Shown: positions 1 through 20,363, counted from the first letter of the stretch. The stretch: 42,951 nt of DNA from an uncultured bacterium (GCA_964538495.1 CAZIEA010000004.1:4262-47212); one strand, 5' to 3'. Numbers and translations are program-made. Notes: generated by a model not told the origin, from the letters alone.

Positions 1-3000
1 AACATCCGACATTAGTGGGGGCGGTGTTGTCGATGATGAAGCGCCCGCTCGCGCTCGCCACCGCCGGGTCGGCGTCGTCGGAAACCCGGACCTGGTAGGT
101 GCTCCCGTCCGGGTAGGCGGAGGTGTCCCAGCCAGGCCAGGTGAGGGTGTCCCAGGCCACTCCGGAGGCGATGGCGAGCCAGGAAGTCCCGTTGGTGGCA
201 TAGTCCAGGCTGACGGTGTCGCCCCCGCCCCAGCCCTCCCCGATGGCCAGCCAGGACAAATCGTGCGCCCCGCTCCACTTCTCGGCCCCGAAGGCGCCCC
301 CGTAAGGGGTGATCAGGAAGAGGGAGTCGAGCGAGGAGCGCGAGGCCTCTTCCATCCCCCCGTAGGCCCCCTGGTTGACCCTCTGCCCGTTGGGGAAGGT
401 TTCCTCCCCGTAGTCGTCGTAGGGGCTGCCGGAGTTGAGGGCGGGGCTGTCGGAAGCGTCGGCGGCCCAACTCCCGAAGTGGTAGGACCCCTCGGTGCTT
501 CGGGGATGGAAATCGTCGTCGGCCCCATGCTTTCCGCCTAAAATTCCATCCGCTCCGGGCGGGTCCGCGAAGAGCGGATCCGCGCTCAGGCTGTGTTGGT
601 CCTGGCGGCTGGCAATTTGCCAGTCGGTTAAAGTAGCCCGGGGAAGCCCCCAGAATCCAACCCCGCCTCCCCCGGTGACATAGAGGTTATTGAAGTTGGA
701 AAACTGGCTTGAGGTCGAGATGAAGTAGAGACCGTAGACGCTTGTGCTCTCTGCCCAGACCGTATTGTTTTTTACCGTGCATCCCGGCGCGTTGATAGAG
801 AGTTCGTAACTGGAGTTTCCATAAAGCGTGTTGTTGGCTATGACGCTTGGGCTTCCCGCGAAGGCGGCCCCCCCGCCCGAGTTGCCGTAAATCAGATTGC
901 GCTTGAAAACCGAGGACGAGGTTGAAAAGGAAACTCCGGTTCGCTCGTTGGAGTATATGGCATTCCCGGAAACCTCTGCCGAATTGGAGCCGGCGGCCGC
1001 CAAACCGAAGTGGTTGAGGAATATGGCATTCCCGTCCACGGAGAGGCCCGGGCAATTTGCCGCTTGCAAGCCGGAGTGAGTGCTCCCCGGGGCCGGGTAT
1101 CCGTAATTCATGCCTATCAGGTTCCCGGCAACGGTTAGGGAAACACAATCGTCAAAGATGATACCGTGGGTAATATTTCCAGTTATGGAGTTATCACGAA
1201 CGACTACCTGAGAGCCCCCTTCTCCCCTGATTCCCGCCCCTCCTCCGCCCACTCCTCCGGCGGAACTCTGCCCGTTCCAGGATACTTCGGATTCTCTGAT
1301 CGCTACGCCTTGAACTTGTTCCATCCTTAACCCGTAGTCCAAAGCGGCCGCCAAGGTTATTCCCGCCAACTCAAGGTAGCTGGTTCGATTCAAGTAGATT
1401 CCGGTATTTGCCTGTCCCATTCCGGAGAGAAGAGAGCGGTTGGAGGACCCGGTCAGGAAGATCGACCCGGCCGGGCTCCCGGAGTCGGGGAGCCCGATCT
1501 CGACCGCGGTCGCCAGGGGATATATTCCGGTATCAATATAGACGGTGTCGCCCGGTTCCAGGTCCACGAGGTCTATGAGATTCTTCAAAGTCCGCTTGGG
1601 TCGGGAGGGGAGGGCCCCGCTGTAGGAGTCGCTTCCCGTGGTGGTGGTATAAACGTCGTCCAGGACCCCGGTGTCGTTGACCCAGTAGTTAATCCCGGGG
1701 GCGCCGGGGGAGCGGGAGGCTTGGTAGGTGTTGCCGTAAGCTCCCAGGTTGATCCTGCCTCCCTTGGGGGAGGTTTCGTAGGGGCAGGGGAAAGCCGGGT
1801 CCCCGGCGTCGATACCGGGCGAGGTCAGGAGATCGCTGTCGGTCCAATTGGCCCAACTCACCCAGCGTCCGGCCGGGCTGAGCAGGTGGTAGTCGGAACC
1901 AGCCGCGGCAAAGAGCGGGTCAACGCTCAGGCTGTTGGCGTCCTGCAGGGCCGCCCCCTGCCAGGAAGCCAGGTCGGGGGCGTCCCCGCCCCAGTAGCCC
2001 AGTACCGCCGGGGCGGGCCCAAGGAGGTTGTTGTAATCGGAAAGGAAGCCGTTTTCGCTCCCCGCGTCCACGTAGACCCCATAGGCCCCAGCGGCCACGG
2101 CCCAAAGGATGTTGTTGCGCAGATAGCTGTGGGGGGCGTTCAGGCAGAAAACTTCCCCCAGGGTGTTGTTATAGGAGGTGACGTTGACTACCCGGTTCCC
2201 CTCGCCCCCGGACAAACTTGCTCCCGCCCCGGAATTGCCGTCGAGGACGAAATTGAACAGGGTATTGGCGTTGCCGGTGACCTGGATCCCGTCGCCCCCG
2301 TGATTCCAGGAGCGGCCCCGGCGGACGGTGTTGTTGTCCCCGGAAACCAGCAACCCCGCCCCGGTGGCCCGGGTGAAGGAGATATTGTCCAGTTCGACAT
2401 AATCTCCTTCCAGGAGCAGGCAGTTCTCGAAGAGGTTGCCCGCGTCCAGGATCACGCCTGCCCCGGTTCCGGCGATCCGGACCGGGTAGTAGGCCGAGCC
2501 CGAATCCGGGGCGGCTACGGTCAGGGGGGCGGCCAGGACATAGGTCCCGGCATTGACGTAGACGGTGTCGCCCGGCTCGAGGTCCCGGTTGGCCAGGATC
2601 CAGCGTAGGCCGGTGGTGGCGCTTTCGATATTGGTTGCCCGCCAGACCGCGGAGGTGGAAAAGACCCCGTAACCGTCGGTGTCGGCGGTGAACCCGCAGA
2701 ACGGGCTTACGTTTTCGATCTCGTCCCGGGCCTTGACCCGCCAGTAGTAGGTGCTTCCGGCGGCGAGATTGGGCGCCCACATGCTCCAAGCGATCCATCC
2801 CGAGTTAATCAACCCGGAGGTGAAAGCGGGCGAATCGGCGACCTGGAAATAGTAGGGGAGGGGATGGAGCCCGACCAGGGCGTCCAGGGCAGTCAGCGCG
2901 CGCAGGGGGACATAGGAAGGCAGCCCTGTTTCCCCGTCTTCAGGGAGGAAGACCCCGACGTTGGCGGGGGGGGTGTTGTCGATGGTGAAGGTTCCGCTTC

Positions 3001-6000
3001 CCGCTCTCAGCCCGCCCGGCTCGCTCACCAAGATCTGGTAACTGTTTCCGTCGGCCACCGAGATGGTGCTCCAGTCGGGGTAGATCTGGGTGGGATAAGT
3101 TTCGGTGGAGATGGTGAAAAAGGCCGAACCGTCGGTGGTGTACTCCACCACCAGGAGATCCCCCGGGACCCAATCTTCCCCCACCGCCAGCCAGCGGATG
3201 TTCTGGAGTCCGTTCCACTTTTCCCCTCCCACCGGTTCCACCATGGCCAGGGTCTTGGTGCTGGCCAGGGAGGCCTGGTAGGTGCCCCCGTAGGCCCCGA
3301 TGTTGATGCGGCCGCCGTTGGGCTCGGGCTCCGGGGTATAGTCGCTTCCGGCGGGATGGAAGACCCGGGTCCCGGCCGGGTAGGAGCCGTCCACGCCGGT
3401 GGCGCCGACCAGGAGGTCCCCGCTCTTCCCGGTATAGGAGATGAAATCGCCCGCGATGTCGGTGGTATCAAGCTGGTCGGGAAAGTTGGTCGCGTCGGTT
3501 AATTCCAGGAAGGTCGAAGCGGAAGTGACGGGCTGGGCCAGGTAGGAGTCGGCGCTGTAGATCTGGCCCAGGTTCAGGCCGGGGCTGGCGTTGGTGTCGG
3601 CGCTCCAGAGCCCCTCGTGGTAGCTCCCCAGCGGGCTCTGGAGGTGGAAGTCTATCCCGGGGGCGACGAAAACCGGGTTGAGGTTGAGGCTGGCCCCGTC
3701 CTGCCCGCTGGCCGCCCGCCAGAGGTCGAAGGTGGACCGTTTCCCCCCCCAGTAGCCGATGTCCGCTCCGCCGGTGGCATAGAGAATATTGTAGTTGGAG
3801 GAAATGCCGATGCCGGTCGCGCCCGCATAGAAAGCGTAATTTCCCGTCTGGTGGGCCCAGAGGACGTTGTTGACGACGAGACTGCGGTTCGAAACGTTGG
3901 AGACGCTGAGTTCGCCCCCGTTTTTATAGCAAGTGTTGCTGATGATTCTCCCGTCCGGGCAGGAGCCGACCAGTATAATTCCATAGCCAGCGTTTCCGTG
4001 GACGGTATTGTGAGAGACCGAAGGGCCGGTCGTGATGTTGATGGAAATCCCCGCGTTCGAGTTTGCGCGGAGGGTATTTCCCGTTATGATGGCGCGGCTG
4101 CATTGGTACAGGTAAAAGCCGTTGATGTTTTCCCGAGCGGTGTTGTTTCTGAAGGTCCCCGACGAAACCTGCCAGGCGTATAACCCGTTTACCGCGTTGG
4201 CGTAAAAGAGGTTTTCGCTAATCAGGTTTGCCCCGGAAAGGTTGTAGAGATACGCTCCCGTTCCCAGATTGGCAAAAGAGGTGTTCCCCCGGAAGGTCGA
4301 GGAGTTCGGGTTGAAGAGATGAAATCCGTTGCTGCTGTTGTGTTCGGAGCGGTTCCCCTCTAAAAGCGATCCCGTGCCTCCGGAAAGGTAAACTCCTGCG
4401 CCGTAGTTATAGGAGAAAGAGTTTTTGCTCAAGACGACGGAGGAAGAACTCCCGGAAAACCCGTTTGACCCGCTGCCCCTGATTACGGAATCAGCCAGGG
4501 AACAGTTGGAGGAACTGGTTATGGAAACGGCATTGGCGGAAGCGTTGAATATCCAAAGCCGGTCGAGGTTGATGAAGCCCTTCCCTGAGATGGAAATGCA
4601 GGTTGGGACCACGCCCTCGATATCCAGGATCGAGGTATTGGGGGAACCGGCGATGGTGATCGGCTGTCCCGCCGTTCCCGCGGCCGGAATGCTTATAGTG
4701 GAGGTGACCGGGTAAAGTCCGGTGTCGAGATAGACCGTGTCCCCCGGCAGCATCGTGTAATTGGCAAAGACCGCTCCCAGGGAGTCCAGGGGGGAAGATG
4801 GATTCAGCCCGTCGTGGTCAGGCCAGGGGAGGCCCCCGGTGGAACAGTAGTAGTCCCACTCGGTGTCGGCGTCGTTGACATAAAAGTTGCGCCCGGCCAC
4901 TCCCGGGGAACGGGAGGCCTGCACGGTGTTGCCGTAGGCCCCCAGGTTGATCCGGCCGCCGTTGGGACCCGATTCCAGGGCGTAGGTGGAGAAGGGGTTG
5001 CCCCGGTCCACCCCGGGGGAGGTCTGGGTGTCGAGGGCCCAGGAAACCCCGTTCCAGCGCCCGCCCGCGCTCAGGAGGTGAAAATCGTCCGCCCCCGGCG
5101 CGAAGAGGGGATCCCGGCTCAAGCCGCTTTGGTCCTGTAAACTGGCCCCGGTCCACTCCGAGAACGTGGCCAGGGTCTCGGAGTTCCAGTAGCCGATCAA
5201 ACCGCCGGAGTCGGCGTAGAGGTCGTTGTAGTCGGAAGAGAATTCCACCTGGCTCGCGCTTTCCACATAGAGGGCGACTTTTTCCGCCCCCGTAGCCCAG
5301 AGGATGTTGTTGAGGAGCCCGCAGTGAGTGGAGCCGACCGGGTGGTAAGGGGCGGGGGGGATGTCGTCTGCGAGAAAGACTTCCTGCGTCCCGTTGCGGG
5401 CGCAGGAGTTGTTTTCGATGACGGAGTAATGAGAGGCGAAAAGGTGGATTCCGGCCAGGGAGTTGTCGTAAACCCGCATGTTCCGGATGGTGGTGTAGTC
5501 TCCGGTGACCTCAATCCCGTCGCCCCCGTTGGAGAAACTCGCCCCGTACTGCAGGCTGTTGTGGTCCCCGGAGATAAGCACGCCGCTGGAGACGGCGTTG
5601 GTGAAGGCGAAGTTCTCCACCTGGTAGTAATCGCCGCTGACGGTCAAACAGTGGTCGTGAATTCCCCCGGCGTCGAGCAGAACCTCGCCACCGTAGCCGG
5701 TGATCCGGACCGGGGCCTCCTCGGAGCCCTGGTCGGCGGGGCCGAACTCGAGCGGGGAGGAGAGGCTGTAAGCCCCGGCGTCCACATAGACGATGTCCCC
5801 GGGGTTGAGTTCGACATTGTCCAGAATCCAGCGCAAGCCCACGGTCTCGGACTCAATGTCGAGGGCGTGGTAAACCCCTAAGGTTCGGAATGACCAGTAG
5901 GTTCCGGGCGCGTCGGCGTCCCCGCAGAAGCCGCGCTCGTTGACGGGGTCGGCGCTGTCGCGGGCGTTGACCCGCCAGTAGTAGGTGGTGTTGGGGGTGA

Positions 6001-9000
6001 GGGCCGGGTGCCAGGTGGGCAGTTCCCGCCAGCCCGAGTTCTGCACGGCCGGTGAGTTGAAAAGCGGGGAGGTGTCGATCTGGAAGTAGTAGGGCTCGGT
6101 ATTGAGTCCGGCGGGCGAATCGGAGGCAATGAGAGCCGTCAGGGTGGTGGAGACGGGTTCCCGGGGACTCCCGTCGGCGGGAAGGCGGCAGCCGACATTG
6201 ATGGGAGGGGTATTGTCCACGATGAAGAAGCCGCTGATGTCTTCGGTAAAGAAAGCCGGTCCGCCGGGAGAGGAGATCTTGACGCGGTAGTCGGTGTTGT
6301 CGCCGGCGGCCGACAAGGTGTTCCAGCTCGAGTAGGTTCCGGTGATGTAGGAGAGACCGGAGGTGATTTCGAAGAAGGAAACTCCGTTCGTGGTGTATTC
6401 CAGGCGCACCGTGTCGGCGGGGAGCCAGCCGTCCCCGTGGGAGGACCAGGCAATCTCGTGGCTCCGGCTCCACTTCTCGGTCCCCCAGGGGCTGCCCAGG
6501 GGAGAGGAGAGGGAGAGAGTCTTCAGGCCGGATCGGGAGGCCTCGGAGGTGTTCCCATAGGTCCCGATGTTTATTCTCCCCCCGTTGGGGGAGAGTTCCA
6601 GGGAATAGTCGTTATCCGGGTTGCCCTTGTTCAGGCCGGGGCTGTTGACCGCGTCCACGACCCATTTTCCGTTCAGGAACCTTCCTTCCGTGCTCCGGAG
6701 GTGGAAATCCCCGCCGGCGGGGTCGTAGAAAAGTGGATTGGCGGAGACTCCGTGGCCGTCTTGTCTGCTGGCGTTGCGCCAGGCCTCGAAAGTGGATCGA
6801 GCCGCTCCCCAGAAGGCCAGGTCGGCCCCGCTCAGGACGTAATAGAGGTTGTAATCGGCGGTGTGGCCGTGGGCCGAGGGACTGGGGGTTTGGAAGTAAA
6901 GCCCGGTATTTCCCGCTCCCTCGACCCAGAAGATGTTGTTGGAAAACTCCGTGTTGTAGGTGCTGTTGATTACGTACACGGCCCGGGTCGTATTCCGGTA
7001 GAAGACATTGTTCCTGATTTGCAGGTTATTGCAGGCGGTCAGGTAGATCCCGATGCCGGTTATTTCCCGGAGCAGGTTGTTGGCCAGCAGGCAGTCATTC
7101 GAGGTGTCGAGCGAGATGCCGGTATTCCCCGCGCAGGTGTTTCCGGAGACGGTTTGATTGTGGTTGCGGTAGAGCCGGATCCCGCTGGTGGCGTTGGCGG
7201 CGACTTGGTTGTTGATTATCGTGGCCGGCGACCAGTAACAGTAGATTCCGCTTCCGCCGTTAGAGAGGCAGGAGTTGTCCTGGATGAGATGGCCGCCGCC
7301 GCCCGAGTAAATGTATATCCCCTGCCCGGAGTTTTCCGAGACGGTGTTCCCCTTGATTTGCGCGGTCGCCCCCAGGTAAAAGTAAATGCCGTGGCTCTGG
7401 TTATCCTGGACTATGTTCTCCTTGAGTTCGGGATAGTCCGTGCTCTGGTTGCAGTAAATCCCGGCGCCTTTGTTGAGGAGGACCTGTGTGTCGCGGATTA
7501 GCGTGCGCTTGGACTCGGAAACGTAGATGCCGTTGTCCCCGGAAGTGGTGACGCGGCAGCCGGAAATGGACAGATAGTCCGACCGGTAGACAGTAACTCC
7601 CGCCTGCCCCGCGTTGATGAACTGAAACCCGTTCAGGGATACGTAAGGGGCGGAGCTTACCCCGAGGCAGTAAGCCAGGGTGCCGCCGCCGTCGAGAACG
7701 CTGCCTTCCGGAGAACCGGTCAGGGTAATCGGATTGTCGGCGCTGCCCGTCCCCCTGATGATCAGCAGGGCCGACGGCGTGTAAAGGCCGGTGTCCACGA
7801 AGACCGAGTCTCCCGCGGTCAGGGTGTAGTGATCCAGCACCGCCTCCACGGAGTCGAGCGGGCTGGCGGGGCTCAAGCCGTTGTGGGCGGGCCAGGGGAG
7901 GCCGGAGGTGGAGCAGAAGTAATCGTATTCGACGGAAGAATCGTTGACGTAGAAGTTGCGCCCGGTCTTGCCCGGGGCGCGGGAGGCTCCCGGGGTGTTG
8001 CCGTAGGCGCCCAGGTTGACCCTGCCCCCGTTGGGGGCGGTCTCCAGGCCGTAAGGGGAAGCGGGGTCCCCCCGGTCCAGCCCCGGGGAGTTGCTCCCGT
8101 CCGCGCTCCAGCCGAAACCGGGTTTCCAGCTTCCGGTGGTGCTCTGGAGCCGGTAGTTGCCGCCCCCGACGAAGAGGGGGTTGGCACTGATGCTGTCGGC
8201 GTCTCCCCCGGAGGCCCCGGTCCAGGCCGCGAAAGCGGCTTGGGTGGCGGAATTCCAGTAGCCGACCGAGGCGGGGGCGGTGGCAAAAAGGTCGTTGTAG
8301 TCGGAATCGAAGCCGGCCTGGCTCTCGGGTTCGACGAAGATCGCGATCTGCCCCCCGGTCCCGGTTGCCCAGGCGATGTTGTTGCGCAGCACGGCGTAGC
8401 TGGAGCCGTTCAAGCCGGTGTCTTCCAGGTGGATTTCCCGGGTTCCGTTATTGGCGCAGGTGTTGTTGGTCAGTTCGGAGGAGTAGCTGGAAATCAGGCG
8501 GATACCGGAGAGAGTGTTGTTGTGGACAAGCATATTGCGGATGATGGTGTAGTCGCCGCTGGTCTCGATTCCAGAGCCGCCGTTCAGGAAAGACCTTCCT
8601 CCCTGGAGGGTGACGTGGTCGCCCTCGATTCGGATGCCGCTGTCGGTGGCGCCGGTAAAGGCGAAGTTCTCGACCTGGAACCAGTCCCCGGTCACCCGCA
8701 GGCAGTTGAGGGCGGTCCCGTTGCCGTCCAGGAGGACTTCCCCGTTCAAGCCCACGATCCGGACCGGGGAACCCTCCGCCCCCTCGTCGGCGGGGGAGAG
8801 GAGCATCGGCTCGCTCAGGGTGTAGCTTCCCGGGGCGACATAGACGATATCCCCCTGGGAAAGATCGTGGTTCTGCAGGATCCAGCGCAAGCCGTCGGTG
8901 GTCGCGGTGGCTTCGCTCGGCTCCACCGTGAGGGCGTGGTAGATACTTTGGGTCCGGAAGTAGCGGTAGGTCCCCGGAGAAGTGGTTTCCGCCTGGAACT

Positions 9001-11335
9001 CGCTCACGTTGGGCGGGTCGCAATCATCTCTTCCCCGGACCTGCCAGTAGTAGGTGGTGTTGGAACTCAGATTTACGGTCCAAAGGTTGTTGACGATCCA
9101 GCCGGAGGTGAGCAGGTCGGCCGAGGCGAAGCTGGGGTCGGTGTCCACTCGGAAGTAGTAGGGTTGGCTGTTGAGCCCGGCCGGGGAGTCGTTGATTTCC
9201 CGGGCTACCAGGGTGGTAAGGCGGGAGACTCCCACCGCCCCGTCGGCCGGGCTGGAGCATCCGACATTGGCGGGAGGGGTATTGTCCGCCGTCATGATTC
9301 CGCTCCGGATCTCGGCGGCCCGGGGGGAAGAGCCGGCGCTGTGCTCGAACCGGATCCGGCCCGTCCCGGAATCGGAACTGGAAGCCGTGTTCCATTCGTA
9401 GGGGGATGAATCCCAGGCGATTCCGCTGGCCAGGGAGATCCAGCTCACCGAGTCGGTGGAATAGGAGATGGATAAGGTATCCGCTCCCGTCCAGCCGTCC
9501 CCGAAAGTCCGCCAGGAAATATCGTGAACCCCGCTCCACTTCTCCCCGGCCAGGGGGTGGCCCAGGGGGGAGTCCAGAAAAAGACTGCGCCGGCTGGATT
9601 TGGAAGCCTCCGGGGTGTTCGCATAAGCGCCTATGTTTACCCTCCCCCCGTTCGGGTCCGGTTCCCAACTGAAGTCCGCGCTGGCCGGCTGGACCACCAG
9701 GGCGCTGGTGGCGTGGGCGAACGCCGCGCCGGTGCACCCGACCAGGGAACTCCCGGAAATTCCGGTATAGCCGATGAAATCTCCTTCCACTTCCACCCAA
9801 TTCCGGCTGGTCGCGAAACCTACGGAACTGGAGAGCGGAATAATCGTGGTTTTGGGGTTTACTGCCCCGGTTAGGGCGGCCTCGGCCAGGCCGGCGAACC
9901 CGGCATTTAAGGCCGGGCTATCCTCGCTGTCCTCATACCAGGAGCCTTCCGCGTATCTGCCTTCGGTGCTCTGGAGATGAAAATCATACCCGGCTGGGTC
10001 GAAGAAGAGCGGGTCGCCGGTGAAGCTGTGGCCGTCCAGCCCGCTGCCTAATATCCAACTCCTTAAATCGGAGTAAGATATGGTTTGTTTCCAGACCCCG
10101 ACTATAGCCCCCCCGATGGGGTTGATCAGGTTGAAGTCGGAAATGCAGTCGCGCTTGTCGGAATTGATGTCGTTATACTTGAACGCGAACTTGCCGGACC
10201 CATCGGGTTGAATGATGTTTCCGAAGACTCGGACTGAGGCGGTGTTGTCGTAAAAATAAATTCCCGACCCTCTTTCCAGGACGTTTTGCGTGACGAGGAC
10301 GTATTTGGGATAGTAAAGGGCTATGCACCCTGTCTCAGCCACGATAACCGTCCTGGAAATCACGATATTTTCGCCTTGGGATATCACGGCCCCCGCCGTG
10401 TTCCCGATAAGCGCGCACAGGTCGATGTGAACATTGTTGGAAAGAGAGGTGCTGATTCCCCTGGTGTTATTCCGGGCCGAACTGTATTCGATCCTGATAT
10501 TGTTTGAATTCGCGAGGGCGATCCCATCCTCGGCGTTTCCCGTTGCCGTCAGGGCGTAAAGCGCGCAGTAGGGGTTTGCCTGGAGGCGGATCCCGTGTGC
10601 GGGAGATGACTGGGCCGTGAAATGCGCCAGTTCCAGGTAGTAGCTTCCGTTAAAATGCAGGCAGGAACTTGAAGAAGGCAGATTTTCTCCTGAAAATACG
10701 GTCCCGTTCGGCGACCCGGCAAAACACAGGTTGGCGGAAGCACCGCCGTGGTCGGATGACGTGAGATAAATCCGCTCGGGCAACGCCCAATACCCGGTGT
10801 CTACGTAAACCACGTCGCCCGTCCCCAGGACGTAACCGTCGATGATGGACTGCAGGTTCCACTTGGGGGCGGCGGGGGAAAGCCCGGAGTTGGCGTTGTC
10901 GCCGATGGCGGTGCAATAGACGTCGTCGGTGAGGGAGGTATCGTTGACGAAGTAGGCGGTCCCGATTACCGGGTTATTGAGCGCGAAATACCAGCCGCTC
11001 TGGTCGGAAACCCCGGGGTCGCCGGTTTTGCTGATCCGCACCTTGTAGTTGCCGTTGGGGAGGGTGGTGGTGTACCAGCGGAATTTTTGTAAATCGTAGG
11101 GGAGATTGACTGCGATCCGGGTGTAGGAAAATTCGTCCGTGGTCCATTCCAGGTCCACCTGGTCCCCGGCGGACCAGCCCGAGGTGGAGGTGCTCCAGGA
11201 GATCTCGGCCGCCCCGCGCCAGGAGAGCCCGTCGGTGTTGGGGGAAATCAGCGCCACCGTCTGGGCGGCGGCGAGCCCGCCCGTCAGGAGCAGGAGCAGA
11301 ACCGCGAAAACGGCCCTCGAACCGTGGTTCTTCAA
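1..11335 (-). CDS. giant secreted right-handed parallel beta-helix repeat protein (at least 3,778 aa; 3' end lies beyond the left edge)
   Basis: Absent from the ORF track because it has no stop in the window. The minus frame whose codon first bases fall at position = 1 mod 3 is the only frame with no listed ORF fragment across 1-11.3 kb. Hand translation from TTG at 11335 (GAAAGGA 5 nt upstream) gives MKNHGSRAVFAVLLLLLTGGLAAAQTV, a signal peptide. Downstream are repeated motifs: IDNTPPxNVGC, TTYYWxVxARD, LRWILxNxxLxPGDxVYV, NFYVND...GDxVYxDTGxY, PbH1-like N-rich turns, and DPLF..DFHLxS..SPGxDxG..PNGGRINLGAYGNT. Frame spot-checked by hand at 11221-11335, 6181-6240 and 5761-5880. Confidence 0.85.
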   Translation of the reverse strand, partial: MKNHGSRAVFAVLLLLLTGGLAAAQTVALISPNTDGLSWRGAAEISWSTSTSGWSAGDQVDLEWTTDEFSYTRIAVNLPYDLQKFRWYTTTLPNGNYKVRISKTGDPGVSDQSGWYFALNNPVIGTAYFVNDTSLTDDVYCTAIGDNANSGLSPAAPKWNLQSIIDGYVLGTGDVVYVDTGYWALPERIYLTSSDHGGASANLCFAGSPNGTVFSGENLPSSSSCLHFNGSYYLELAHFTAQSSPAHGIRLQANPYCALYALTATGNAEDGIALANSNNIRIEYSSARNNTRGISTSLSNNVHIDLCALIGNTAGAVISQGENIVISRTVIVAETGCIALYYPKYVLVTQNVLERGSGIYFYDNTASVRVFGNIIQPDGSGKFAFKYNDINSDKRDCISDFNLINPIGGAIVGVWKQTISYSDLRSWILGSGLDGHSFTGDPLFFDPAGYDFHLQSTEGRYAEGSWYEDSEDSPALNAGFAGLAEAALTGAVNPKTTIIPLSSSVGFATSRNWVEVEGDFIGYTGISGSSLVGCTGAAFAHATSALVVQPASADFSWEPDPNGGRVNIGAYANTPEASKSSRRSLFLDSPLGHPLAGEKWSGVHDISWRTFGDGWTGADTLSISYSTDSVSWISLASGIAWDSSPYEWNTASSSDSGTGRIRFEHSAGSSPRAAEIRSGIMTADNTPPANVGCSSPADGAVGVSRLTTLVAREINDSPAGLNSQPYYFRVDTDPSFASADLLTSGWIVNNLWTVNLSSNTTYYWQVRGRDDCDPPNVSEFQAETTSPGTYRYFRTQSIYHALTVEPSEATATTDGLRWILQNHDLSQGDIVYVAPGSYTLSEPMLLSPADEGAEGSPVRIVGLNGEVLLDGNGTALNCLRVTGDWFQVENFAFTGATDSGIRIEGDHVTLQGGRSFLNGGSGIETSGDYTIIRNMLVHNNTLSGIRLISSYSSELTNNTCANNGTREIHLEDTGLNGSSYAVLRNNIAWATGTGGQIAIFVEPESQAGFDSDYNDLFATAPASVGYWNSATQAAFAAWTGASGGDADSISANPLFVGGGNYRLQSTTGSWKPGFGWSADGSNSPGLDRGDPASPYGLETAPNGGRVNLGAYGNTPGASRAPGKTGRNFYVNDSSVEYDYFCSTSGLPWPAHNGLSPASPLDSVEAVLDHYTLTAGDSVFVDTGLYTPSALLIIRGTGSADNPITLTGSPEGSVLDGGGTLAYCLGVSSAPYVSLNGFQFINAGQAGVTVYRSDYLSISGCRVTTSGDNGIYVSESKRTLIRDTQVLLNKGAGIYCNQSTDYPELKENIVQDNQSHGIYFYLGATAQIKGNTVSENSGQGIYIYSGGGGHLIQDNSCLSNGGSGIYCYWSPATIINNQVAANATSGIRLYRNHNQTVSGNTCAGNTGISLDTSNDCLLANNLLREITGIGIYLTACNNLQIRNNVFYRNTTRAVYVINSTYNTEFSNNIFWVEGAGNTGLYFQTPSPSAHGHTADYNLYYVLSGADLAFWGAARSTFEAWRNASRQDGHGVSANPLFYDPAGGDFHLRSTEGRFLNGKWVVDAVNSPGLNKGNPDNDYSLELSPNGGRINIGTYGNTSEASRSGLKTLSLSSPLGSPWGTEKWSRSHEIAWSSHGDGWLPADTVRLEYTTNGVSFFEITSGLSYITGTYSSWNTLSAAGDNTDYRVKISSPGGPAFFTEDISGFFIVDNTPPINVGCRLPADGSPREPVSTTLTALIASDSPAGLNTEPYYFQIDTSPLFNSPAVQNSGWRELPTWHPALTPNTTYYWRVNARDSADPVNERGFCGDADAPGTYWSFRTLGVYHALDIESETVGLRWILDNVELNPGDIVYVDAGAYSLSSPLEFGPADQGSEEAPVRITGYGGEVLLDAGGIHDHCLTVSGDYYQVENFAFTNAVSSGVLISGDHNSLQYGASFSNGGDGIEVTGDYTTIRNMRVYDNSLAGIHLFASHYSVIENNSCARNGTQEVFLADDIPPAPYHPVGSTHCGLLNNILWATGAEKVALYVESASQVEFSSDYNDLYADSGGLIGYWNSETLATFSEWTGASLQDQSGLSRDPLFAPGADDFHLLSAGGRWNGVSWALDTQTSPGVDRGNPFSTYALESGPNGGRINLGAYGNTVQASRSPGVAGRNFYVNDADTEWDYYCSTGGLPWPDHDGLNPSSPLDSLGAVFANYTMLPGDTVYLDTGLYPVTSTISIPAAGTAGQPITIAGSPNTSILDIEGVVPTCISISGKGFINLDRLWIFNASANAVSITSSSNCSLADSVIRGSGSNGFSGSSSSVVLSKNSFSYNYGAGVYLSGGTGSLLEGNRSEHNSSNGFHLFNPNSSTFRGNTSFANLGTGAYLYNLSGANLISENLFYANAVNGLYAWQVSSGTFRNNTARENINGFYLYQCSRAIITGNTLRANSNAGISINITTGPSVSHNTVHGNAGYGIILVGSCPDGRIISNTCYKNGGELSVSNVSNRSLVVNNVLWAHQTGNYAFYAGATGIGISSNYNILYATGGADIGYWGGKRSTFDLWRAASGQDGASLNLNPVFVAPGIDFHLQSPLGSYHEGLWSADTNASPGLNLGQIYSADSYLAQPVTSASTFLELTDATNFPDQLDTTDIAGDFISYTGKSGDLLVGATGVDGSYPAGTRVFHPAGSDYTPEPEPNGGRINIGAYGGTYQASLASTKTLAMVEPVGGEKWNGLQNIRWLAVGEDWVPGDLLVVEYTTDGSAFFTISTETYPTQIYPDWSTISVADGNSYQILVSEPGGLRAGSGTFTIDNTPPANVGVFLPEDGETGLPSYVPLRALTALDALVGLHPLPYYFQVADSPAFTSGLINSGWIAWSMWAPNLAAGSTYYWRVKARDEIENVSPFCGFTADTDGYGVFSTSAVWRATNIESATTGLRWILANRDLEPGDTVYVNAGTYVLAAPLTVAAPDSGSAYYPVRIAGTGAGVILDAGNLFENCLLLEGDYVELDNISFTRATGAGLLVSGDNNTVRRGRSWNHGGDGIQVTGNANTLFNFVLDGNSGAGASLSGGEGNRVVNVTSYNNTLGEVFCLNAPHSYLRNNILWAVAAGAYGVYVDAGSENGFLSDYNNLLGPAPAVLGYWGGDAPDLASWQGAALQDANSLSVDPLFAAAGSDYHLLSPAGRWVSWANWTDSDLLTSPGIDAGDPAFPCPYETSPKGGRINLGAYGNTYQASRSPGAPGINYWVNDTGVLDDVYTTTTGSDSYSGALPSRPKRTLKNLIDLVDLEPGDTVYIDTGIYPLATAVEIGLPDSGSPAGSIFLTGSSNRSLLSGMGQANTGIYLNRTSYLELAGITLAAALDYGLRMEQVQGVAIRESEVSWNGQSSAGGVGGGGAGIRGEGGSQVVVRDNSITGNITHGIIFDDCVSLTVAGNLIGMNYGYPAPGSTHSGLQAANCPGLSVDGNAIFLNHFGLAAAGSNSAEVSGNAIYSNERTGVSFSTSSSVFKRNLIYGNSGGGAAFAGSPSVIANNTLYGNSSYELSINAPGCTVKNNTVWAESTSVYGLYFISTSSQFSNFNNLYVTGGGGVGFWGLPRATLTDWQIASRQDQHSLSADPLFADPPGADGILGGKHGADDDFHPRSTEGSYHFGSWAADASDSPALNSGSPYDDYGEETFPNGQRVNQGAYGGMEEASRSSLDSLFLITPYGGAFGAEKWSGAHDLSWLAIGEGWGGGDTVSLDYATNGTSWLAIASGVAWDTLTWPGWDTSAYPDGSTYQVRVSDDADPAVASASGRFIIDNTAPTNVGC

Positions 11336-11437
11336 GGTGATCCTTTCGCTGGGGGCCGGTGGTTTTCCGGCGCCGATTTGTCCCGGATTGGAGCGGTTTA
11401 AATACGGCCTGATTCGGTTACAGCCTTCCTTATTATG

Positions 11438-11466
11438 TTTATACCCGATAACCGTTCCTAAATCAA
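11438..11466 (-). promoter_or_regulatory. candidate sigma70-type promoter for the giant gene
   Basis: On the minus strand: TTGATT (11466-11461), a 17-nt spacer, then TATAAA (11443-11438), about 100 nt upstream of the TTG start. Sequence match only. Confidence 0.25.
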
Positions 11467-11594: not shown

Positions 11595-11831
11595 TTCACA
11601 TGTAGACATGTAGGGCATGTAGAAAATCAAATGCTGTCCACAGATTTCACAGATTTAAACTTCATGTTCTTCATGTCCTTCATGGTGAGAAAAGCAGGCT
11701 GAAGGAACTCACACCCCATACCCCATGCCTCATACCCCATTACACGGATTACTGATTACGGATTACGTTTGGTTTTCCTGATTCCTGACTCCTGTTTCCC
11801 GACCCTATGCTCTATGCCCTATGCTCTATGC
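11595..11831. repeat. mosaic of short tandem word repeats in the divergent intergenic region
   Basis: In order: CATGTAG x3 block (11595-11626), CACAGATTT x2 (11635-11656), TTCATGTYC x3 (11660-11685), GGCTGAAG, CATACCCC-type x3 (11712-11740), GGATTAC/TGATTAC x3 (11744-11767), TCCTGAY x3 (11775-11794), CTATGCYC x4 (11803-11831). The same words recur in at least 14 other intergenic regions of this window. Confidence 0.9.
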
Positions 11832-11870
11832 TTAAATGTAAGCGCTATCGCCAATTTTCCCATGACCGGC

Positions 11871-11884: not shown

Positions 11885-13513
11885 ATGACCGGCCAAACCG
11901 AAAAGACCGTCTCGCCGCTGGATTCCGCCAGCCTGGATATACTCAAGTTCATCCTGGCGCTGCTGCTGGTGGTGCTGGCCTGGGTGGGTTATTACGCCCG
12001 CCACTACGAGGGGCTGTCCCTGATAGATTCCCTGGACACCGCTCAGGTCGCCCAGAACCTGGCCCAGGGCCGGGGTTTCGTCAGCAATTTTCTCCGCCCG
12101 GTGACGCTGGCGGCTTTTCCGGGAACCGGACCTCTCCCGGATTTCTATAATCCCCCGGCCCAGGTCCTTCTTCTGGGGGGGCTTTTCCGCCTCTTCGGGG
12201 CCCGGGGCCTGGTCGTGATCGGCTCCTCCCTGGTCTGGGGGTTGCTGGGGGCCCTGGGGGTTTTCGCCCTGGCTTGGCGTCGTCTCGGCTATCGCTGGGG
12301 CTTGCTCGCGCTGTTGCTCGTCGGCCTGGCCCCGGGAACGATCGAGATTTCCTTTTCCGGGCTCGGGGTCGCCTTTTCCGGGTTGCTTCTGCTGATTTTT
12401 TTCTCCCTCCTGGCCCGGGAAAGCCGGCCGGGGGCCGTCATCCTGGCTGCCTTGGGGGCAACCTGGGGGCTGCTGGCCCTGAACGATTTTGTTTTCGCCG
12501 TTCTCTCCCCCCTGGCTGTTTTTTTAATCTGGCGGCCGGACCGGGACCGGAAGTCAGCCGGGATTTTCGCCCTGGCGGCCTTCCTGGTTGTCCTCCCCTG
12601 GCTGCTCCGGAACCTGCTGGTCGCCGGAAATCCCCTGGCGTCCCTGCGCTGGGCGGAGTTCTATTCCTGGACCAGGAGCCTGCCCGGGAACCGGGTTTTC
12701 CGCGACCCGGCCTGGGCGGCGGGGATGGTCTCGCCCGGGGAGATCCCGGAAAAGTTTCTGGTCTTCGGGCGGCTGATGAACCCCTACTGGGTCGCCCTGG
12801 GCGGGCTCCCGGTCTTGGGGCTTTACCTGCTTTCCCTCTTCGTCTCCCCCCGTCCCGGTCGCTTCGGGCAGGCTTCCCGGCTGGTGGGCCTGCTGCTGGC
12901 GGTGGCTTCGGTCAAGGTCGTCCTTTTCGACCCCAACTCCTTCGGGAGCCTGCTGGCGTTTTACCCGGTCCTGGCCCTGGCGGCGCTGGATTTTCTCGCC
13001 TCCCGGCTTCCGGTTGCCGCCCCTTTCCGCCGCCGGAAAAGAGCCGCGGTGTCGGCGGCCGTGTTAGCCGCGGTCTGCCTGCCCGGCCTGGCTTCCGCCT
13101 ATCTTGGCCTGGGGGAGGGCCGGTATTTTCCTCCCGTCCTGGACCGGGCCGCCCGGGAAAACCTTGCCGCCGGATCGGTTTCCCGGAGCATCCGGGAGCT
13201 GGTCAAGCCCGACGAGACCGTGATCTCAGATTCTCCCTGGGTTGTGGCCTGGTTCACGGGGCGATCTTCCCTCTGGATCCCTTGGGAACTTTCCCAGGTC
13301 CGGGAACTGAGGGAGCAGCGGCCCTTGCTTGACTTCCTTCACCTTACCCCGATGATTCATCGCTATCCCCCCGGGGAGAGCCCCGGCCCCTGGCAGGAAA
13401 TCTACTCCTCCGGCCGGGTTCCGGCCTGGCTTGGCTTCGAGAAGGGGATCATCCTGCCCGGGCAGGAGACGCTCCTGGGTTCCCGCGTCTTCGAGCGCCT
13501 TGACCTCGAGTAG
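11885..13513 (+). CDS. GT-C fold polytopic membrane glycosyltransferase (ArnT/PMT-like)
   Basis: 542 aa with many TM helices. N-terminal loop DSLDTAQVAQNLAQGRGF...PDFYNPPAQVLLLGGLFRLFG resembles the first periplasmic loop motif of GT-C enzymes. Family assigned by eye only. Confidence 0.7.
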   Translation: MTGQTEKTVSPLDSASLDILKFILALLLVVLAWVGYYARHYEGLSLIDSLDTAQVAQNLAQGRGFVSNFLRPVTLAAFPGTGPLPDFYNPPAQVLLLGGLFRLFGARGLVVIGSSLVWGLLGALGVFALAWRRLGYRWGLLALLLVGLAPGTIEISFSGLGVAFSGLLLLIFFSLLARESRPGAVILAALGATWGLLALNDFVFAVLSPLAVFLIWRPDRDRKSAGIFALAAFLVVLPWLLRNLLVAGNPLASLRWAEFYSWTRSLPGNRVFRDPAWAAGMVSPGEIPEKFLVFGRLMNPYWVALGGLPVLGLYLLSLFVSPRPGRFGQASRLVGLLLAVASVKVVLFDPNSFGSLLAFYPVLALAALDFLASRLPVAAPFRRRKRAAVSAAVLAAVCLPGLASAYLGLGEGRYFPPVLDRAARENLAAGSVSRSIRELVKPDETVISDSPWVVAWFTGRSSLWIPWELSQVRELREQRPLLDFLHLTPMIHRYPPGESPGPWQEIYSSGRVPAWLGFEKGIILPGQETLLGSRVFERLDLE

Positions 13514-15120: not shown

Positions 15121-15125
15121 GGCCG

Positions 15126-15280
15126 GCGGATCGCCGTTCCTACGGAACGGCTTGCAGTATCGTCACTCCTGGCGGAGTGACTTGCAGGATCGTCTCGACT
15201 GCGTCGAGACTTGTAGTATCGTCCCTCGCCTTGCTCGGGACTTGCGGTATCGCCGCTCCCTTGAGGGGAGCGGCTTGCAA
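15126..15280 (+). repeat. hairpin-unit array 1 (5 units, forward orientation)
   Basis: Units of 29-30 nt: head TTGYRGTATC followed by GCCGTTCC-tac-GGAACGGC, GTCACTCC-tggc-GGAGTGAC, GTCTCGAC-tgc-GTCGAGAC, GTCCC..GGGAC and GCCGCTCCC-ttga-GGGGAGCGGC. Begins 6 nt after the stop at 15120. Confidence 0.9.
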
Positions 15281-15330
15281 CTTTAGGCCTTATGCCCTAT
15301 GCTTTCATAGGCTGAAGGACCCGACGCTGC

Positions 15331-15566
15331 ATTCACATGTAGACATGTAGGACATGTAGAAAGGCTGAAGATTTTTTTCACAGTTTAACCGCGAATCCAA
15401 GGGCCACGGATCACGGATCACTGATTACGGATTACGATTTTCCCTGAACCCTGAACCCTGTATCCTGGGTTTCGACGGATTACGGATCACTGATTACGGA
15501 TTACGATTTTTCCTGAACCCAGACCCCTGAACGCAACCTACATGTTCTACATGTCTACATGTGAAT
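15331..15566. repeat. MITE-like 236-bp unit bounded by 29-nt inverted CATGTAG blocks
   Basis: ATTCACATGTAGACATGTAGGACATGTAG (15331-15359) matches the reverse complement of 15538-15566 at 28 of 29 positions. The interior holds only word repeats (GGCTGAAG, GGATYAC x8, CCTGAAC x4) and has no coding capacity. Confidence 0.8.
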
Positions 15567-15577
15567 AGGCGACGCGG

Positions 15578-20335: not shown

Positions 20336-20363
20336 GCAGCCTTAATTGTTGGATTATGGGGTC

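What the first reader, a model, noticed from the sequence alone, without database searches (positions are those of the whole stretch)
1..11335. Open frame of at least 3,778 codons missing from the ORF track: a giant secreted beta-helix protein
The track lists only shadow ORFs here, up to 526 aa and Arg/Gly/Pro-rich, on both strands. One minus-strand frame has no stop from 11335 to position 1. It starts with a textbook signal peptide (MKNHGSRAVFAVLLLLLTGGLAAAQTV) behind a GAAAGGA RBS and a TTG start. It then reads as coherent beta-helix/Ig-like/FN3-like sequence for 11.3 kb and is still open at the window edge. A single gene covering about 26% of the window, divergent from a glycan-export locus, is a candidate surface adhesin, S-layer-like or polysaccharide-active fibre. 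Its true length and C-terminal anchor are unknown.
Basis: seen in the sequence. Interest (0 to 1): 0.65.

Follow-up and report, generated by a model that had tools for sequence, protein, structure and literature searches.

The report
Giant secreted multi-beta-helix surface protein gene
The open frame is real: it is the first ~63% of an ~18-kb gene for a ~6,000-residue secreted protein built of repeated sugar-binding "beta-helix" modules. The gene is conserved in a little-known group of uncultured bacteria and sits next to their slime/capsule-making genes. A very similar protein was described by computer analysis in 2025, so it is interesting but not new in kind.

Summary
Observation confirmed. 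The minus-strand frame 11335..2 has no stop in 3,778 codons (chance about 6e-46) and GC3 of 0.80, against 0.51-0.55 in the other frames. It is collinear at 50-83% identity with orthologues in three other MAG contigs, with dN/dS about 0.2. The ORF track missed it only because ORFs that run off the window edge are not listed.

The protein has a Sec/SPase-I signal peptide, then [beta-sandwich + long beta-helix B], then three full ~1,050-aa super-repeats of [Ig-like, FN3-like, short beta-helix A, long beta-helix B], then the start of a fourth.

Orthologues show the missing end. A full-length relative is 6,076 aa (657 kDa, pI 4.5, no TM segment). It adds a fourth helix A, TSP3-type Ca-binding repeats, two more beta-helices and Pro/Thr linkers. 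It ends in four DUF5719/ASRT-like domains, which elsewhere accompany cell-wall hydrolases. There is no PEP-CTERM, T9SS, RTX or autotransporter tail.

The divergent EPS-export and GT-C glycosyltransferase neighbourhood is syntenic in the close relatives.

Best reading: an envelope-tethered, probably glycosylated, polysaccharide-binding or -processing fibre. Whether it is catalytic is unresolved.

A ~6,000-aa Sec-secreted tandem-CASH protein with the same features was reported in silico for Ca. Menyafoubacter/PUNC01 (PMC12057145). This is therefore a new member of a described but uncharacterised kind.

The parts
2..11335 (-). 5' 63% of the giant gene: 3,778 codons, open at the window's left edge; expected full length about 6,000 codons
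   Evidence: No stops, GC3 0.80. Collinear orthologues L001/L002/L003. dN/dS about 0.22. The last window residue aligns to aa 3,839 of the 6,076-aa orthologue P0003.
11438..11466 (-). sigma70-like promoter candidate, TTGATT-17 nt-TATAAA, about 100 nt upstream of the start
   Evidence: Read from the sequence. L001 and L003 carry a TTGACC...TATATATT element in the same upstream region. Consensus match only; not tested.
11341..11347 (-). Shine-Dalgarno-like GAAAGGA, 5 nt before the TTG start (11335-11333)
11261..11335 (-). Sec/SPase-I signal peptide (aa 1-25; n-region K2/R7, h-region AVFAVLLLLLTGGL, c-region AAA|Q); no lipobox Cys
   Evidence: Only hydrophobic segment in the protein. The junction is conserved in orthologues. 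No signal-peptide predictor was available.
9611..11260 (-). N-terminal unit: beta-sandwich Ig1 (aa 26-122) plus long beta-helix B1 (aa 123-575), with a 72-aa insert (9680-9895) before the C-terminal cap
   Evidence: Self-comparison and module HMMs. Alignment A3. The Disaggr_assoc match at aa 439-479 is the cap motif.
6545..9610 (-). Super-repeat 1 (aa 576-1597): Ig2 9287-9610, FN3-like 8951-9286, beta-helix A1 7991-8950, beta-helix B2 6545-7990
   Evidence: AF2 model of B2 has pLDDT 77 and pTM 0.79.
3278..6544 (-). Super-repeat 2 (aa 1598-2686): Ig3 6218-6544, FN3-like 5897-6217, beta-helix A2 4922-5896, beta-helix B3 3278-4921 (73-aa insert at 3347-3565)
   Evidence: This is the most conserved part between species (Ig3 79-83%, FN3 76-84%).
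341..3277 (-). Super-repeat 3 (aa 2687-3665): Ig4 2981-3277, FN3-like 2666-2980, beta-helix A3 1721-2665, beta-helix B4 341-1720
2..340 (-). Start of super-repeat 4: Ig5 (32-340) and the first 10 residues of the FN3-like domain (DNTAPTNVGC), cut by the window edge
   Evidence: Orthologues continue with FN3, helix A4, TSP3 repeats and helix C.
11885..13513 (+). Divergently transcribed 11-TM PMT_2-like (GT-C) glycosyltransferase; candidate glycosylase of the giant protein
   Evidence: Pfam PMT_2 25.3 bits, just under the 26.1 cutoff. 11 TM-like segments. Syntenic in L001-L003. PMT_2 genes also lie next to the gene's 3' end in L012/L013.
13654..18075 (+). EPS export/polymerisation control genes: TPR+Poly_export (Wza-like) 13654-15120, XrtA-type chain-length determinant 15578-17239, tyrosine autokinase 17236-18075
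   Evidence: TIGR03007 279.6 bits against a cutoff of 278.85. Syntenic in L001/L003.

Best explanation
Window 11335..2 (minus strand) is the first ~63% of a real ~18-kb gene. It encodes a ~6,000-aa (~650 kDa), acidic protein without TM segments that is exported by the Sec pathway.

Shown:
- An SPase-I type signal peptide.
- Seven right-handed parallel (PbH1/CASH) beta-helix domains in the window. They are arranged as [Ig-like, helix B], then 3 x [Ig-like, FN3-like, helix A, helix B], then the start of a fourth unit.
- Each module is orthologous position for position to the same module in relatives, with almost no indels and dN/dS about 0.2.
- Full-length relatives add helix A4, TSP3-type Ca-binding repeats, two more beta-helices, Pro/Thr linkers, two or three ~90-aa repeats, and four C-terminal DUF5719/ASRT-like beta-sandwich domains.
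- The gene is divergently paired with an EPS export/biosynthesis locus rich in GT-C glycosyltransferases.

Inferred:
- After Sec export the protein stays attached to the cell envelope through the C-terminal DUF5719-like array. In other proteins this module accompanies SpoIID, NlpC/P60, amidase, SLH and GH18 domains.
- It is O-glycosylated by the adjacent PMT_2-type enzymes.
- It projects a long segmented fibre whose beta-helix grooves bind polysaccharide chains multivalently and may cleave or modify them. The most likely target is the cell's own, possibly sulfated, EPS made by the neighbouring locus, so that the protein organises or remodels the capsule or matrix.

Whether any helix is catalytic is not resolved.
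For: - Real gene: no stops, GC3 0.80; collinear orthologues at 50-83% identity, 0-7 gapped positions per module; dN/dS 0.22 overall; 0.12-0.19 in Ig3/FN3_2.
- Fold: Beta_helix 400 bits, NosD 256 bits; AF2 pLDDT 77; PL6, PL9, GH136, tailspike, AlgE/AlgG and RbmB neighbours, TM 0.4-0.53.
- Architecture.
- Length and tail. P0003 is 6,076 aa; L012 and L013 terminate; the estimate for the window protein is about 6,015 aa.
- No TM segment and pI 4.5.
- C-terminal array: homologues carry PF18986 together with PF08486, PF00877, PF01520, PF00395, PF00704 or PF00082.
- Context: Wza-like, Wzc-like, GT2s, Wzy_C, CysD/N, WecB; synteny in L001-L003 although the neighbours are only 34-63% identical.
- GT-C association: (PMT_2/GT-C genes also flank the gene in the distant L012/L013 lineage; four or five polytopic GT-C-like proteins in the window).
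- No catabolic genes (transporters, glycoside hydrolases) are seen near the gene in any locus examined.
Against: - No experiment exists.
- The window itself lacks the C-terminus, so the anchor is inferred from orthologues at 40-75% identity.
- DUF5719 has no demonstrated function. Its 'wall-binding' role is guilt by association, and most of its partners are from monoderm phyla, whereas a Wza-like gene here implies an outer membrane. How a 650-kDa protein would cross that membrane is unknown.
- Synteny with the EPS locus is shown only among fairly close relatives. The upstream side of the gene could not be read in L012/L013.
- The only published reading of what appears to be the same family (PMC12057145) is extracellular catabolism or predation, not self-EPS organisation.
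- All structural neighbours are enzymes, so a purely binding role is not favoured by fold alone.
- The PMT_2 match of the adjacent gene is just below Pfam's cutoff.
Confidence: 0.5

Rival explanations
1. Free or loosely attached extracellular catabolic or 'predatory' multi-enzyme. Each beta-helix would be a polysaccharide lyase or hydrolase (PL6-, pectate-lyase- or disaggregatase-like) that degrades algal or plant cell-wall polymers or the matrix of other cells. This is what was proposed for the ~6,000-aa protein of Ca. Menyafoubacter/PUNC01.
For: Every Foldseek neighbour is a carbohydrate-active enzyme or a phage depolymerase. Pfam gives a Disaggr_assoc match and DUF5123 above its cutoff. The published interpretation of a protein with matching size, signal peptide, tandem CASH domains, a disaggregatase-related region, a CglD-type adhesin domain (TSP3 is among the domains labelled in its Fig. 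6) and disordered regions is catabolic.
Against: There is no sequence-level membership in any characterised lyase, hydrolase or epimerase family. The PDB phmmer search gave 0 hits, a profile of helix A reached only E=0.11 against AlgG, and there is no DPH(D/E) motif. The residues invariant across paralogous modules are mainly Gly, Asn, Asp, Pro, Ser and Trp, concentrated in the N- and C-terminal cap regions, and no recognisable catalytic motif emerges. The coils are very regular 22-23-residue turns without long loops. The neighbouring genes are biosynthetic, not catabolic. Strict position-specific conservation with no indels suits a structural assembly better than a collection of enzymes.
Confidence: 0.3
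2. Purely structural surface layer or sheath protein, like an S-layer or an archaeal CASH surface protein. The beta-helices would be rigid building blocks with no glycan ligand, and the protein would form a protective coat.
For: Large, acidic, rich in Ser, Thr, Asn and Gly, with no TM segment. Module lengths are tightly conserved. GT-C glycosyltransferases lie next door, as for S-layer glycoproteins. PbH1/CASH domains are common in archaeal surface proteins (general knowledge).
Against: No SLH or other known S-layer anchoring domain was found. A single 650-kDa chain with ten beta-helices and flexible Pro/Thr linkers does not look like a lattice-forming unit. The abundance needed for an S-layer is untested.
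Confidence: 0.15
3. Classical secreted adhesin of a known secretion class (TpsA/FHA two-partner, autotransporter/Pmp, RTX/T1SS, PEP-CTERM/exosortase or T9SS cargo).
For: Size and beta-helix content resemble FHA and Pmp adhesins. The neighbouring chain-length determinant matches the XrtA/PEP-CTERM-system model above its cutoff.
Against: There is no TPS domain at the N-terminus. Full-length orthologues have no autotransporter barrel, RTX repeats, PEP-CTERM motif with TM segment, or T9SS C-terminal domain. No exosortase gene was detected in the window.
Confidence: 0.03
4. Not a gene: a chance open frame, a pseudogene or an assembly chimera.
For: High-GC DNA gives long open frames, and the shadow ORFs show this.
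Against: Chance probability is about 6e-46. GC3 is 0.80 only in this frame. Collinear orthologues occur in five independent assemblies. dN/dS is 0.22. Internal DNA repeats are at most 82% identical.
Confidence: 0.01

Closest known systems
~6,000-aa extracellular 'large catabolic protein' of Ca. Menyafoubacter (bin.170_000073) and PUNC01 MAGs GCA_003551625 and GCA_035380285 (Environ Microbiome 2025, PMC12057145)
   Same: About 6,000 aa. Sec/SPI signal peptide and no TM helix. Several tandem CASH beta-helix domains, a disaggregatase-related region, a CglD-type/TSP3 region and disordered linkers. The lineage lies next to Ca. Erginobacter in Auribacterota/PUNC01. Here the nearest named hit is a Ca. 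Erginobacter* protein, and the orthologue tail gives CglD/TSP3 and Pro/Thr-linker features.
   Different: I could not obtain those sequences, so orthology is inferred from the description only. That paper reports PL6, Rhs, internalin and MSCRAMM-type matches that I did not recover with Pfam or NCBIfam on the window protein or the L012 tail. It does not describe the super-repeat anatomy, the DUF5719-like C-terminal array or the EPS/GT-C gene neighbourhood, and it reads the protein as a catabolic or predatory tool.
EPS-locus-encoded single-domain beta-helix enzymes: AlgG/AlgE C5-epimerases, V. cholerae RbmB lyase (PMC11637428), Pantoea WceF (PMC7949094)
   Same: Right-handed parallel beta-helix fold (Foldseek hits to 2pyg, 4nk6 and 9ozd). 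Genetic linkage to an EPS biosynthesis/export locus. Extracytoplasmic location.
   Different: Those are single 40-80 kDa modules with defined catalytic residues. Here there are 7-10 helices in one chain at about 13% identity to them, no DPH(D/E) motif and no significant sequence match.
Unnamed 5,400-6,400-aa multi-beta-helix proteins in metagenomes (P0006-P0037)
   Same: Signal peptide directly followed by a YYVND-type beta-helix start. They hold 12-16 tandem helix-A-like modules with Ig-like spacers, are of similar total length, and share 33-35% identity with the modules here.
   Different: A different arrangement (helix A arrays with no FN3-like domain and no A/B alternation) and a different C-terminus. 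None is named or characterised.
Giant Omnitrophota proteins (Archaeovorin and Dockerin types; bioRxiv 10.1101/2023.11.21.568195)
   Same: Very large predicted surface proteins of uncultured PVC-group bacteria, with carbohydrate-related domains.
   Different: Those reach far greater sizes (the genes are cited as encoding proteins of up to about 85,800 aa). They have antiparallel beta-helix tubules, SecA-helicase and glycosyltransferase domains and multiple TM helices, and lie next to secretion-system loci. None of these features is seen here.
Methanosarcina disaggregatase and archaeal CASH surface proteins (Pfam Disaggr_assoc PF08480)
   Same: PbH1 coils plus the 'DPLF..P..GDFHL' C-terminal cap motif, which matches Disaggr_assoc positions 154-194 (E 7.6e-10). 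A link to matrix polysaccharide.
   Different: Only a 41-residue cap segment matches. The architecture, size and organism are unrelated.

Membership tests
Right-handed parallel beta-helix (PbH1/CASH; Pfam Beta_helix PF13229, NosD PF05048) | Significant match to the repeat models above the curated cutoff | tested here: met
   PF13229 400.1 bits against 25.9 (10 stretches); PF05048 256.1 against 23.6; TIGR03804 66.3 against 19.45.
Right-handed parallel beta-helix (PbH1/CASH) | Three-dimensional beta-helix fold | tested here: met
   The AF2 model of helix B2 has pLDDT 77.4, pTM 0.79 and a core above 90. Foldseek probability is 1.00 to PL6, PL9 and GH136 enzymes, tailspikes and AlgE. The helix A core has pLDDT 70-96.
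NosD (N2O-reductase maturation) proper | Full-length match to TIGR04247 above the cutoff | tested here: not met
   119.9 bits against a cutoff of 300. There is also no nos gene context.
Characterised polysaccharide lyase/hydrolase/epimerase families (PL1/3/6/9, GH28, GH136, AlgG/AlgE) | Sequence-level family membership | tested here: not met
   No Pfam lyase or GH family match. The PDB phmmer search gave 0 hits. The helix A profile against AlgG gave E 0.11.
AlgG/AlgE mannuronan C5-epimerases | Catalytic DPH(D/E) motif | tested here: not met
   No DPH tripeptide anywhere in the 3,778 aa.
Two-partner-secretion adhesin (TpsA/FHA) | N-terminal TPS (Haemagg_act) domain after the signal peptide | tested here: not met
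   No such Pfam or NCBIfam match; the N-terminus is a beta-sandwich followed by a PbH1 helix.
Autotransporter / Pmp (T5aSS) | C-terminal beta-barrel translocator | tested here: not met
   Absent from the tails of orthologues L012, L013 and P0003. The window's own C-terminus lies outside the window.
PEP-CTERM/exosortase cargo | C-terminal PEP motif, TM helix and basic tail; an exosortase gene nearby | tested here: not met
   Orthologues end ...GHATIGIPVRVPGK with no TM segment. No exosortase was found in the window, although the chain-length determinant matches TIGR03007.
T9SS cargo | C-terminal sorting domain (the NCBIfam/TIGRFAM T9SS C-terminal target domain model) | tested here: not met
   No NCBIfam match in the orthologue tail.
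RTX/T1SS giant adhesins (LapA, SiiE type) | No Sec signal peptide; GGxGxD nonapeptide repeats near the C-terminus; many near-identical BIg repeats | tested here: not met
   A Sec signal peptide is present. There are 0 GGxGxD motifs. The repeats are only 35-55% identical and heterogeneous. The Ca-binding repeats in orthologues are of TSP3 type.
PUNC01/Menyafoubacter ~6,000-aa extracellular CASH protein (PMC12057145) | About 6,000 aa, Sec/SPI, no TM segment, tandem CASH domains, disaggregatase-related region, CglD/TSP3 region, disordered linkers | tested here: met
   All these features are seen in the window protein plus its full-length orthologue.
PUNC01/Menyafoubacter ~6,000-aa extracellular CASH protein (PMC12057145) | Sequence orthology to bin.170_000073 or to the GCA_003551625 and GCA_035380285 proteins | not testable with these tools
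DUF5719 (PF18986) C-terminal array | Match to PF18986 | tested here: inconclusive
   The orthologue tail itself gives no PF18986 match in hmmscan. Its homologues at 26-41% identity, with E values from 1e-94 to 1e-24, are annotated PF18986. This part is not within the window.

The most novel reading that the evidence does not exclude
The protein would be neither an enzyme nor an ordinary adhesin. It would be a glycosylated, envelope-anchored molecular scaffold of fixed length. Its position-specific modules (each conserved as an individual, with no indels across species) would each recognise a different feature of the cell's own sulfated EPS. The protein would thus template the thickness or architecture of a capsule in Auribacterota/PUNC01-like bacteria, a protein-organised capsule without a known counterpart.
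Probability: 0.12. Interest if true: 0.65.

Novelty: new member of a known kind. Interest (0 to 1): 0.35.

Why it matters
The finding shows that an ORF track which drops edge-truncated frames can hide the largest gene in a window, here 26% of it.

Biologically, a ~650-kDa secreted protein under purifying selection is a large investment for a small-genome, uncultured PVC-group bacterium. The Ca. Menyafoubacter MAG reported with a matching ~6,000-aa protein is about 1.6 Mb at 63% completeness. The protein is therefore likely to be central to how these cells interact with polysaccharides, whether their own capsule or matrix or those of algae and other cells.

This analysis adds three things to the one published in-silico description:
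- the exact module anatomy;
- a DUF5719-like C-terminal array as the probable envelope anchor;
- a conserved EPS-export/GT-C neighbourhood that points to envelope biogenesis rather than catabolism.

These give testable alternatives for an uncharacterised family with hundreds of relatives in metagenomes.

Tried and rejected
- A homology search with all 3,778 aa timed out.
- Word-indexed searches with the N-terminal 600 aa and with a helix-A profile returned only 2 and 7 hits. The orthologues in MAGs L001-L003 are evidently not in that protein collection. The index-free HMMER search was what revealed the family.
- PDB sequence searches gave nothing usable. In the orthologue tail, the one significant hit (8zvk_A, 'AaBgIC', E 1.6e-10, over 64 residues) was not followed up, and a marginal TM1070 hit (E 0.79) was the only other match.
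- AF2 of Ig-FN3-helix A with a 4-row alignment was poor outside the helix core (pLDDT 52), so the Ig/FN3 assignment stays weak. Pfam on the spacer domains alone gave only sub-threshold matches.
- PHROGs gave only generic tailspike matches, and nothing for the 72-aa inserts.
- A PEP-CTERM/exosortase link was considered because TIGR03007 passes its cutoff. It was rejected for lack of a PEP-CTERM tail and of an exosortase gene.
- NosD, TpsA, autotransporter, RTX and T9SS memberships were all rejected (see the membership table).
- Rfam and tRNA scans of the window found nothing.
- 'The neglected giants' paper does not mention beta-helix proteins, and no paper mentions DUF5719.
- The Ace Lake Auribacterota paper does not mention such a protein.
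- The contig could not be extended directly.
Full report
OBSERVATION

Translating the minus strand from 11335 gives 3,778 codons without a stop, down to base 2. From base composition a stop is expected every ~37 codons, so the chance of such a run is about 6e-46. The other five frames hold 30-179 stops. GC at codon positions 1/2/3 is 0.55/0.51/0.80 in this frame. In the frames that hold the listed 'shadow' ORFs (for example 7829..9409 +, 526 aa), the 0.80 falls on position 1 or 2. The ORF lister omits ORFs that run off the source, which is why the gene was missing from the track.

The start is a TTG at 11335 with GAAAGGA 5 nt upstream. Upstream in-frame starts exist (ATG 11515 among them). They lie upstream of a sigma70-like TTGATT-17-TATAAA at 11466-11438, and L001/L003 carry a TTGACC...TATATATT element in the same upstream region. 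All orthologue N-termini begin with a short signal peptide that ends ...A/G-x-A/G|Q-[ST][IV]xL[IL]SPNT. The only hydrophobic stretch in the protein is aa 5-32.

ANATOMY

Self-comparison, motif positions and module HMMs give the following layout:
- signal peptide, aa 1-25;
- Ig-like domain, aa 26-122;
- long beta-helix B1, aa 123-575;
- three super-repeats of about 1,020-1,090 aa (aa 576-1597, 1598-2686 and 2687-3665), each made of an Ig-like domain (~105 aa), an FN3-like domain ('DNTPPxNVGC...YYWxV', ~108 aa), a short beta-helix A (~320 aa) and a long beta-helix B (460-550 aa);
- Ig5 and the first 10 residues of the next FN3-like domain at the window edge.

Paralogous modules are 27-55% identical. 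At the DNA level the repeats are only 60-82% alike, so the repeats are old and not an assembly artefact.

Each helix starts with a 'YFVND...GLSPxxP...GDxVYxDTG' cap. It ends with 'DPLFxxPxxxDFHLxS...SPxLNxG...PNGGRxNxGAYGNT'. The first part of that ending is what Pfam calls Disaggr_assoc.

B1 and B3 carry a 72-73-aa insert before the final cap (9680-9895 and 3347-3565). No family matches it.

Pfam gives Beta_helix 400 bits, NosD 256 bits and DUF5123 41.8 bits against a cutoff of 35.1. NCBIfam NosD and beta_helix_1 are below their cutoffs.

The AF2 model of B2 is a regular right-handed beta-helix (pLDDT 77, pTM 0.79). Its Foldseek neighbours are GH136 lacto-N-biosidases, PL6 chondroitinase B and alginate lyases, PL9 Pel9A, phage tailspikes, and AlgE4/AlgG (TM 0.4-0.53, about 13% identity).

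The Ig-FN3-A1 model is reliable only in the helix core, which finds the same kinds of neighbours, including RbmB. The Ig/FN3 labels rest on sub-threshold Pfam matches and on predicted beta strands.

RELATIVES AND THE MISSING END

A genome scan found three MAG contigs with collinear orthologues: L001, L002 ('PVC group bacterium') and L003. Identity is 50-83% per 200-aa chunk.

Per-module identity to the two closer relatives (L001, L003) is 70-84% for the internal Ig, FN3 and helix A modules and 57-67% for helix B. The more distant L002 is lower (58-76% and 43-64%), and the N-terminal Ig1 is only 51-56% in all three. Only 0-7 positions per module are gapped. dN/dS against L003 is 0.22 overall. 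The giant protein is at least as conserved as its neighbours, which are 34-63% identical.

In all three loci the frame is still open after about 4,700 aa, at the limit of the fetched flank. Past aa 3,778 they continue with FN3, helix A4, TSP3-type Ca-binding repeats and a further Pmp-like beta-helix.

A metagenome scan with that tail found L012 and L013, where the gene ends. After two TSP3 + helix C units come:
- Pro/Thr-rich linkers;
- two or three ~90-aa 'DFYYRD...YYSIGW' repeats;
- four ~115-aa 'WYLPEGAT..FDEYI.I.NP' domains, ending ...GHxTIGIPVxTExK.

The index-free HMMER search of 1.84 billion representatives found 9,638 relatives at E<=1e-3 and 407 at E<=1e-30. Among them is one full-length orthologue, P0003, with the same architecture: 6,076 aa, 657 kDa, pI 4.5 and no TM segment.

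Alignment offsets predict about 6,015 aa for the window protein, about 6,170 for L012 and about 6,055 for L013.

The tail has no Pfam or NCBIfam match to autotransporter, T9SS or PEP-CTERM models. Its homologues carry DUF5719 (PF18986). In those homologues DUF5719 is fused to SpoIID, NlpC/P60, amidase_3, SLH, GH18, subtilase and GDSL domains, that is, to extracellular enzymes acting on the wall. A marginal ASRT match fits a small-ligand or sugar-binding beta-sandwich. That link to ASRT function is from my memory of the ASRT literature and was not tested here.

The nearest named hit is a partial Ca. Erginobacter* protein, P0001, with 40% identity and the same N-terminal architecture. It belongs to the PVC-group phylum Ca. 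Auribacterota.

CONTEXT

All genes to the right of the giant gene, except a minus-strand WecB gene (37671-38735), are on the plus strand and form an EPS locus:
- an 11-TM PMT_2-like GT-C;
- a TPR+Poly_export (Wza-like) protein;
- an XrtA-type chain-length determinant (TIGR03007, just above its cutoff);
- a tyrosine autokinase;
- an epimerase/dehydratase;
- several GT2 glycosyltransferases;
- CysD/CysN;
- GT87;
- a sulfatase-family and a phosphodiesterase-family protein;
- Wzy_C;
- methyltransferases;
- a second PMT_2;
- WecB.

The first five genes are syntenic and divergent from the giant gene in L001 and L003, and partly in L002.

In the distant L012/L013 lineage the genes just beyond the 3' end are two 10-TM proteins, one of them PMT_2.

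No exosortase, transporter or glycoside hydrolase gene is seen near the gene in any locus.

MECHANISM

Shown: Sec signal, multi-PbH1 architecture, strong purifying selection with fixed module lengths, and a conserved biosynthetic/GT-C neighbourhood.

Inferred:
- The C-terminal DUF5719-like array tethers the protein to an envelope glycan or to peptidoglycan.
- The adjacent GT-C enzymes glycosylate the protein or its linkers.
- The beta-helices bind polysaccharide multivalently and perhaps process it.

I put 0.5 on an envelope-tethered fibre coupled to the cell's own EPS. I put 0.3 on the published catabolic/predatory reading, 0.15 on a purely structural coat, and little on classical adhesin classes or an artefact.

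Catalysis is unresolved. There is no sequence membership in any characterised enzyme family and no DPH(D/E) motif. The invariant residues across paralogues are mainly Gly, Asn, Asp, Pro, Ser and Trp, concentrated in the cap regions, and form no recognisable catalytic motif. Fold neighbours, however, are all enzymes.

COMPARISON WITH WHAT IS KNOWN

A 2025 paper on Lake Dziani Dzaha MAGs reports a protein that fits this family feature for feature. It is ~6,000 aa, Sec/SPI-secreted and TM-less. It has tandem CASH beta-helices, a disaggregatase-related region, a CglD-type/TSP3 region and disordered segments. It comes from Ca. Menyafoubacter, which branches close to Ca. Erginobacter. 'Very similar proteins' occur in two PUNC01 MAGs. 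The authors interpret it as an extracellular catabolic or predatory protein.

I could not obtain those sequences, so orthology is not verified.

The giant Omnitrophota proteins are a different kind.

A separate set of about 30 unnamed 5,400-6,400-aa proteins is made of 12-16 helix-A-like modules. This shows that tandem PbH1 giants are widespread and uncharacterised.

VERDICT

The gene is a new member of an in-silico-described but experimentally uncharacterised kind of giant secreted CASH/beta-helix protein.

Interest is moderate to low (0.35). The gene is solid, and the anatomy, the probable anchor and the conserved context are new details. The kind is known, and the function remains inferential.

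Noticed in passing
window 11598-11832 (intergenic, between the giant gene and the divergent GT-C gene): A back-to-back chain of seven different short tandem repeats, with units of 7-9 nt and 2-4 copies each: ACATGTAG(G), CACAGATTT, CTTCATGTC, ACCCCAT, ACGGATT, TTCCTGA, CTATGCT. The equivalent region of L003 has GGGTTCA x4. This recalls cyanobacterial STRR heptamer arrays (from memory). The function is unknown; the array might be regulatory or prone to slippage.
   Followed up: partly
window 11885-13513, 23666-24859, 32260-33819, 38933-40735; L012 17732-21052; L013 17339-20683: An unusual concentration of polytopic GT-C-type membrane glycosyltransferases around the giant gene in two diverged lineages: PMT_2 x2, GT87, and an 11-TM ORF with a marginal PTPS_related match. 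This suggests the giant protein is a glycoprotein.
   Followed up: partly
window 20775-23532 and 26841-29777: CysD/CysN (sulfate adenylyltransferase) lie inside the EPS locus together with sulfatase-family and type I phosphodiesterase-family proteins. This hints at a sulfated or otherwise decorated EPS. No sulfotransferase was identified.
   Followed up: no
window 15578-17239: The chain-length determinant passes the XrtA/PEP-CTERM-system equivalog cutoff (279.6 against 278.85 bits). Neither an exosortase gene nor a PEP-CTERM protein was found in the window.
   Followed up: partly
window about 31000-35000: GC drops to 0.51-0.53, against 0.60-0.64 elsewhere, over the methyltransferase, PMT_2 and GT2 genes. 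This is typical of a horizontally exchanged variable part of glycan loci.
   Followed up: no
window 20346-20756: A gene for a 23S rRNA intervening-sequence protein (PF05635, 91 bits) is embedded in the EPS locus.
   Followed up: no
window 9680-9895 and 3347-3565 (aa 481-552 and 2591-2663): A 72-73-aa insert ('...GDFI.YTG.SG..LVG.TG...') lies between the DFHL motif and the final cap of helices B1 and B3 only. It is conserved in P0001 and P0003. There is no Pfam or PHROG match.
   Followed up: partly
L012 about 14400-15200; P0003 aa about 5390-5590: Two or three ~90-aa Trp/Tyr-rich repeats ('DFYYRD..YYSIGW..W.DI..P..RWY..W..WTYH.TE.QYLE') sit between Pro/Thr linkers in the full-length orthologues. 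There is no family match.
   Followed up: no
P0006-P0037: About 30 unnamed metagenomic proteins of 5,400-6,400 aa consist of a signal peptide plus 12-16 tandem helix-A-like modules with Ig-like spacers and a distinct C-terminus. This is a second, larger family of ~6,000-aa multi-beta-helix proteins of unknown taxonomy and function.
   Followed up: partly
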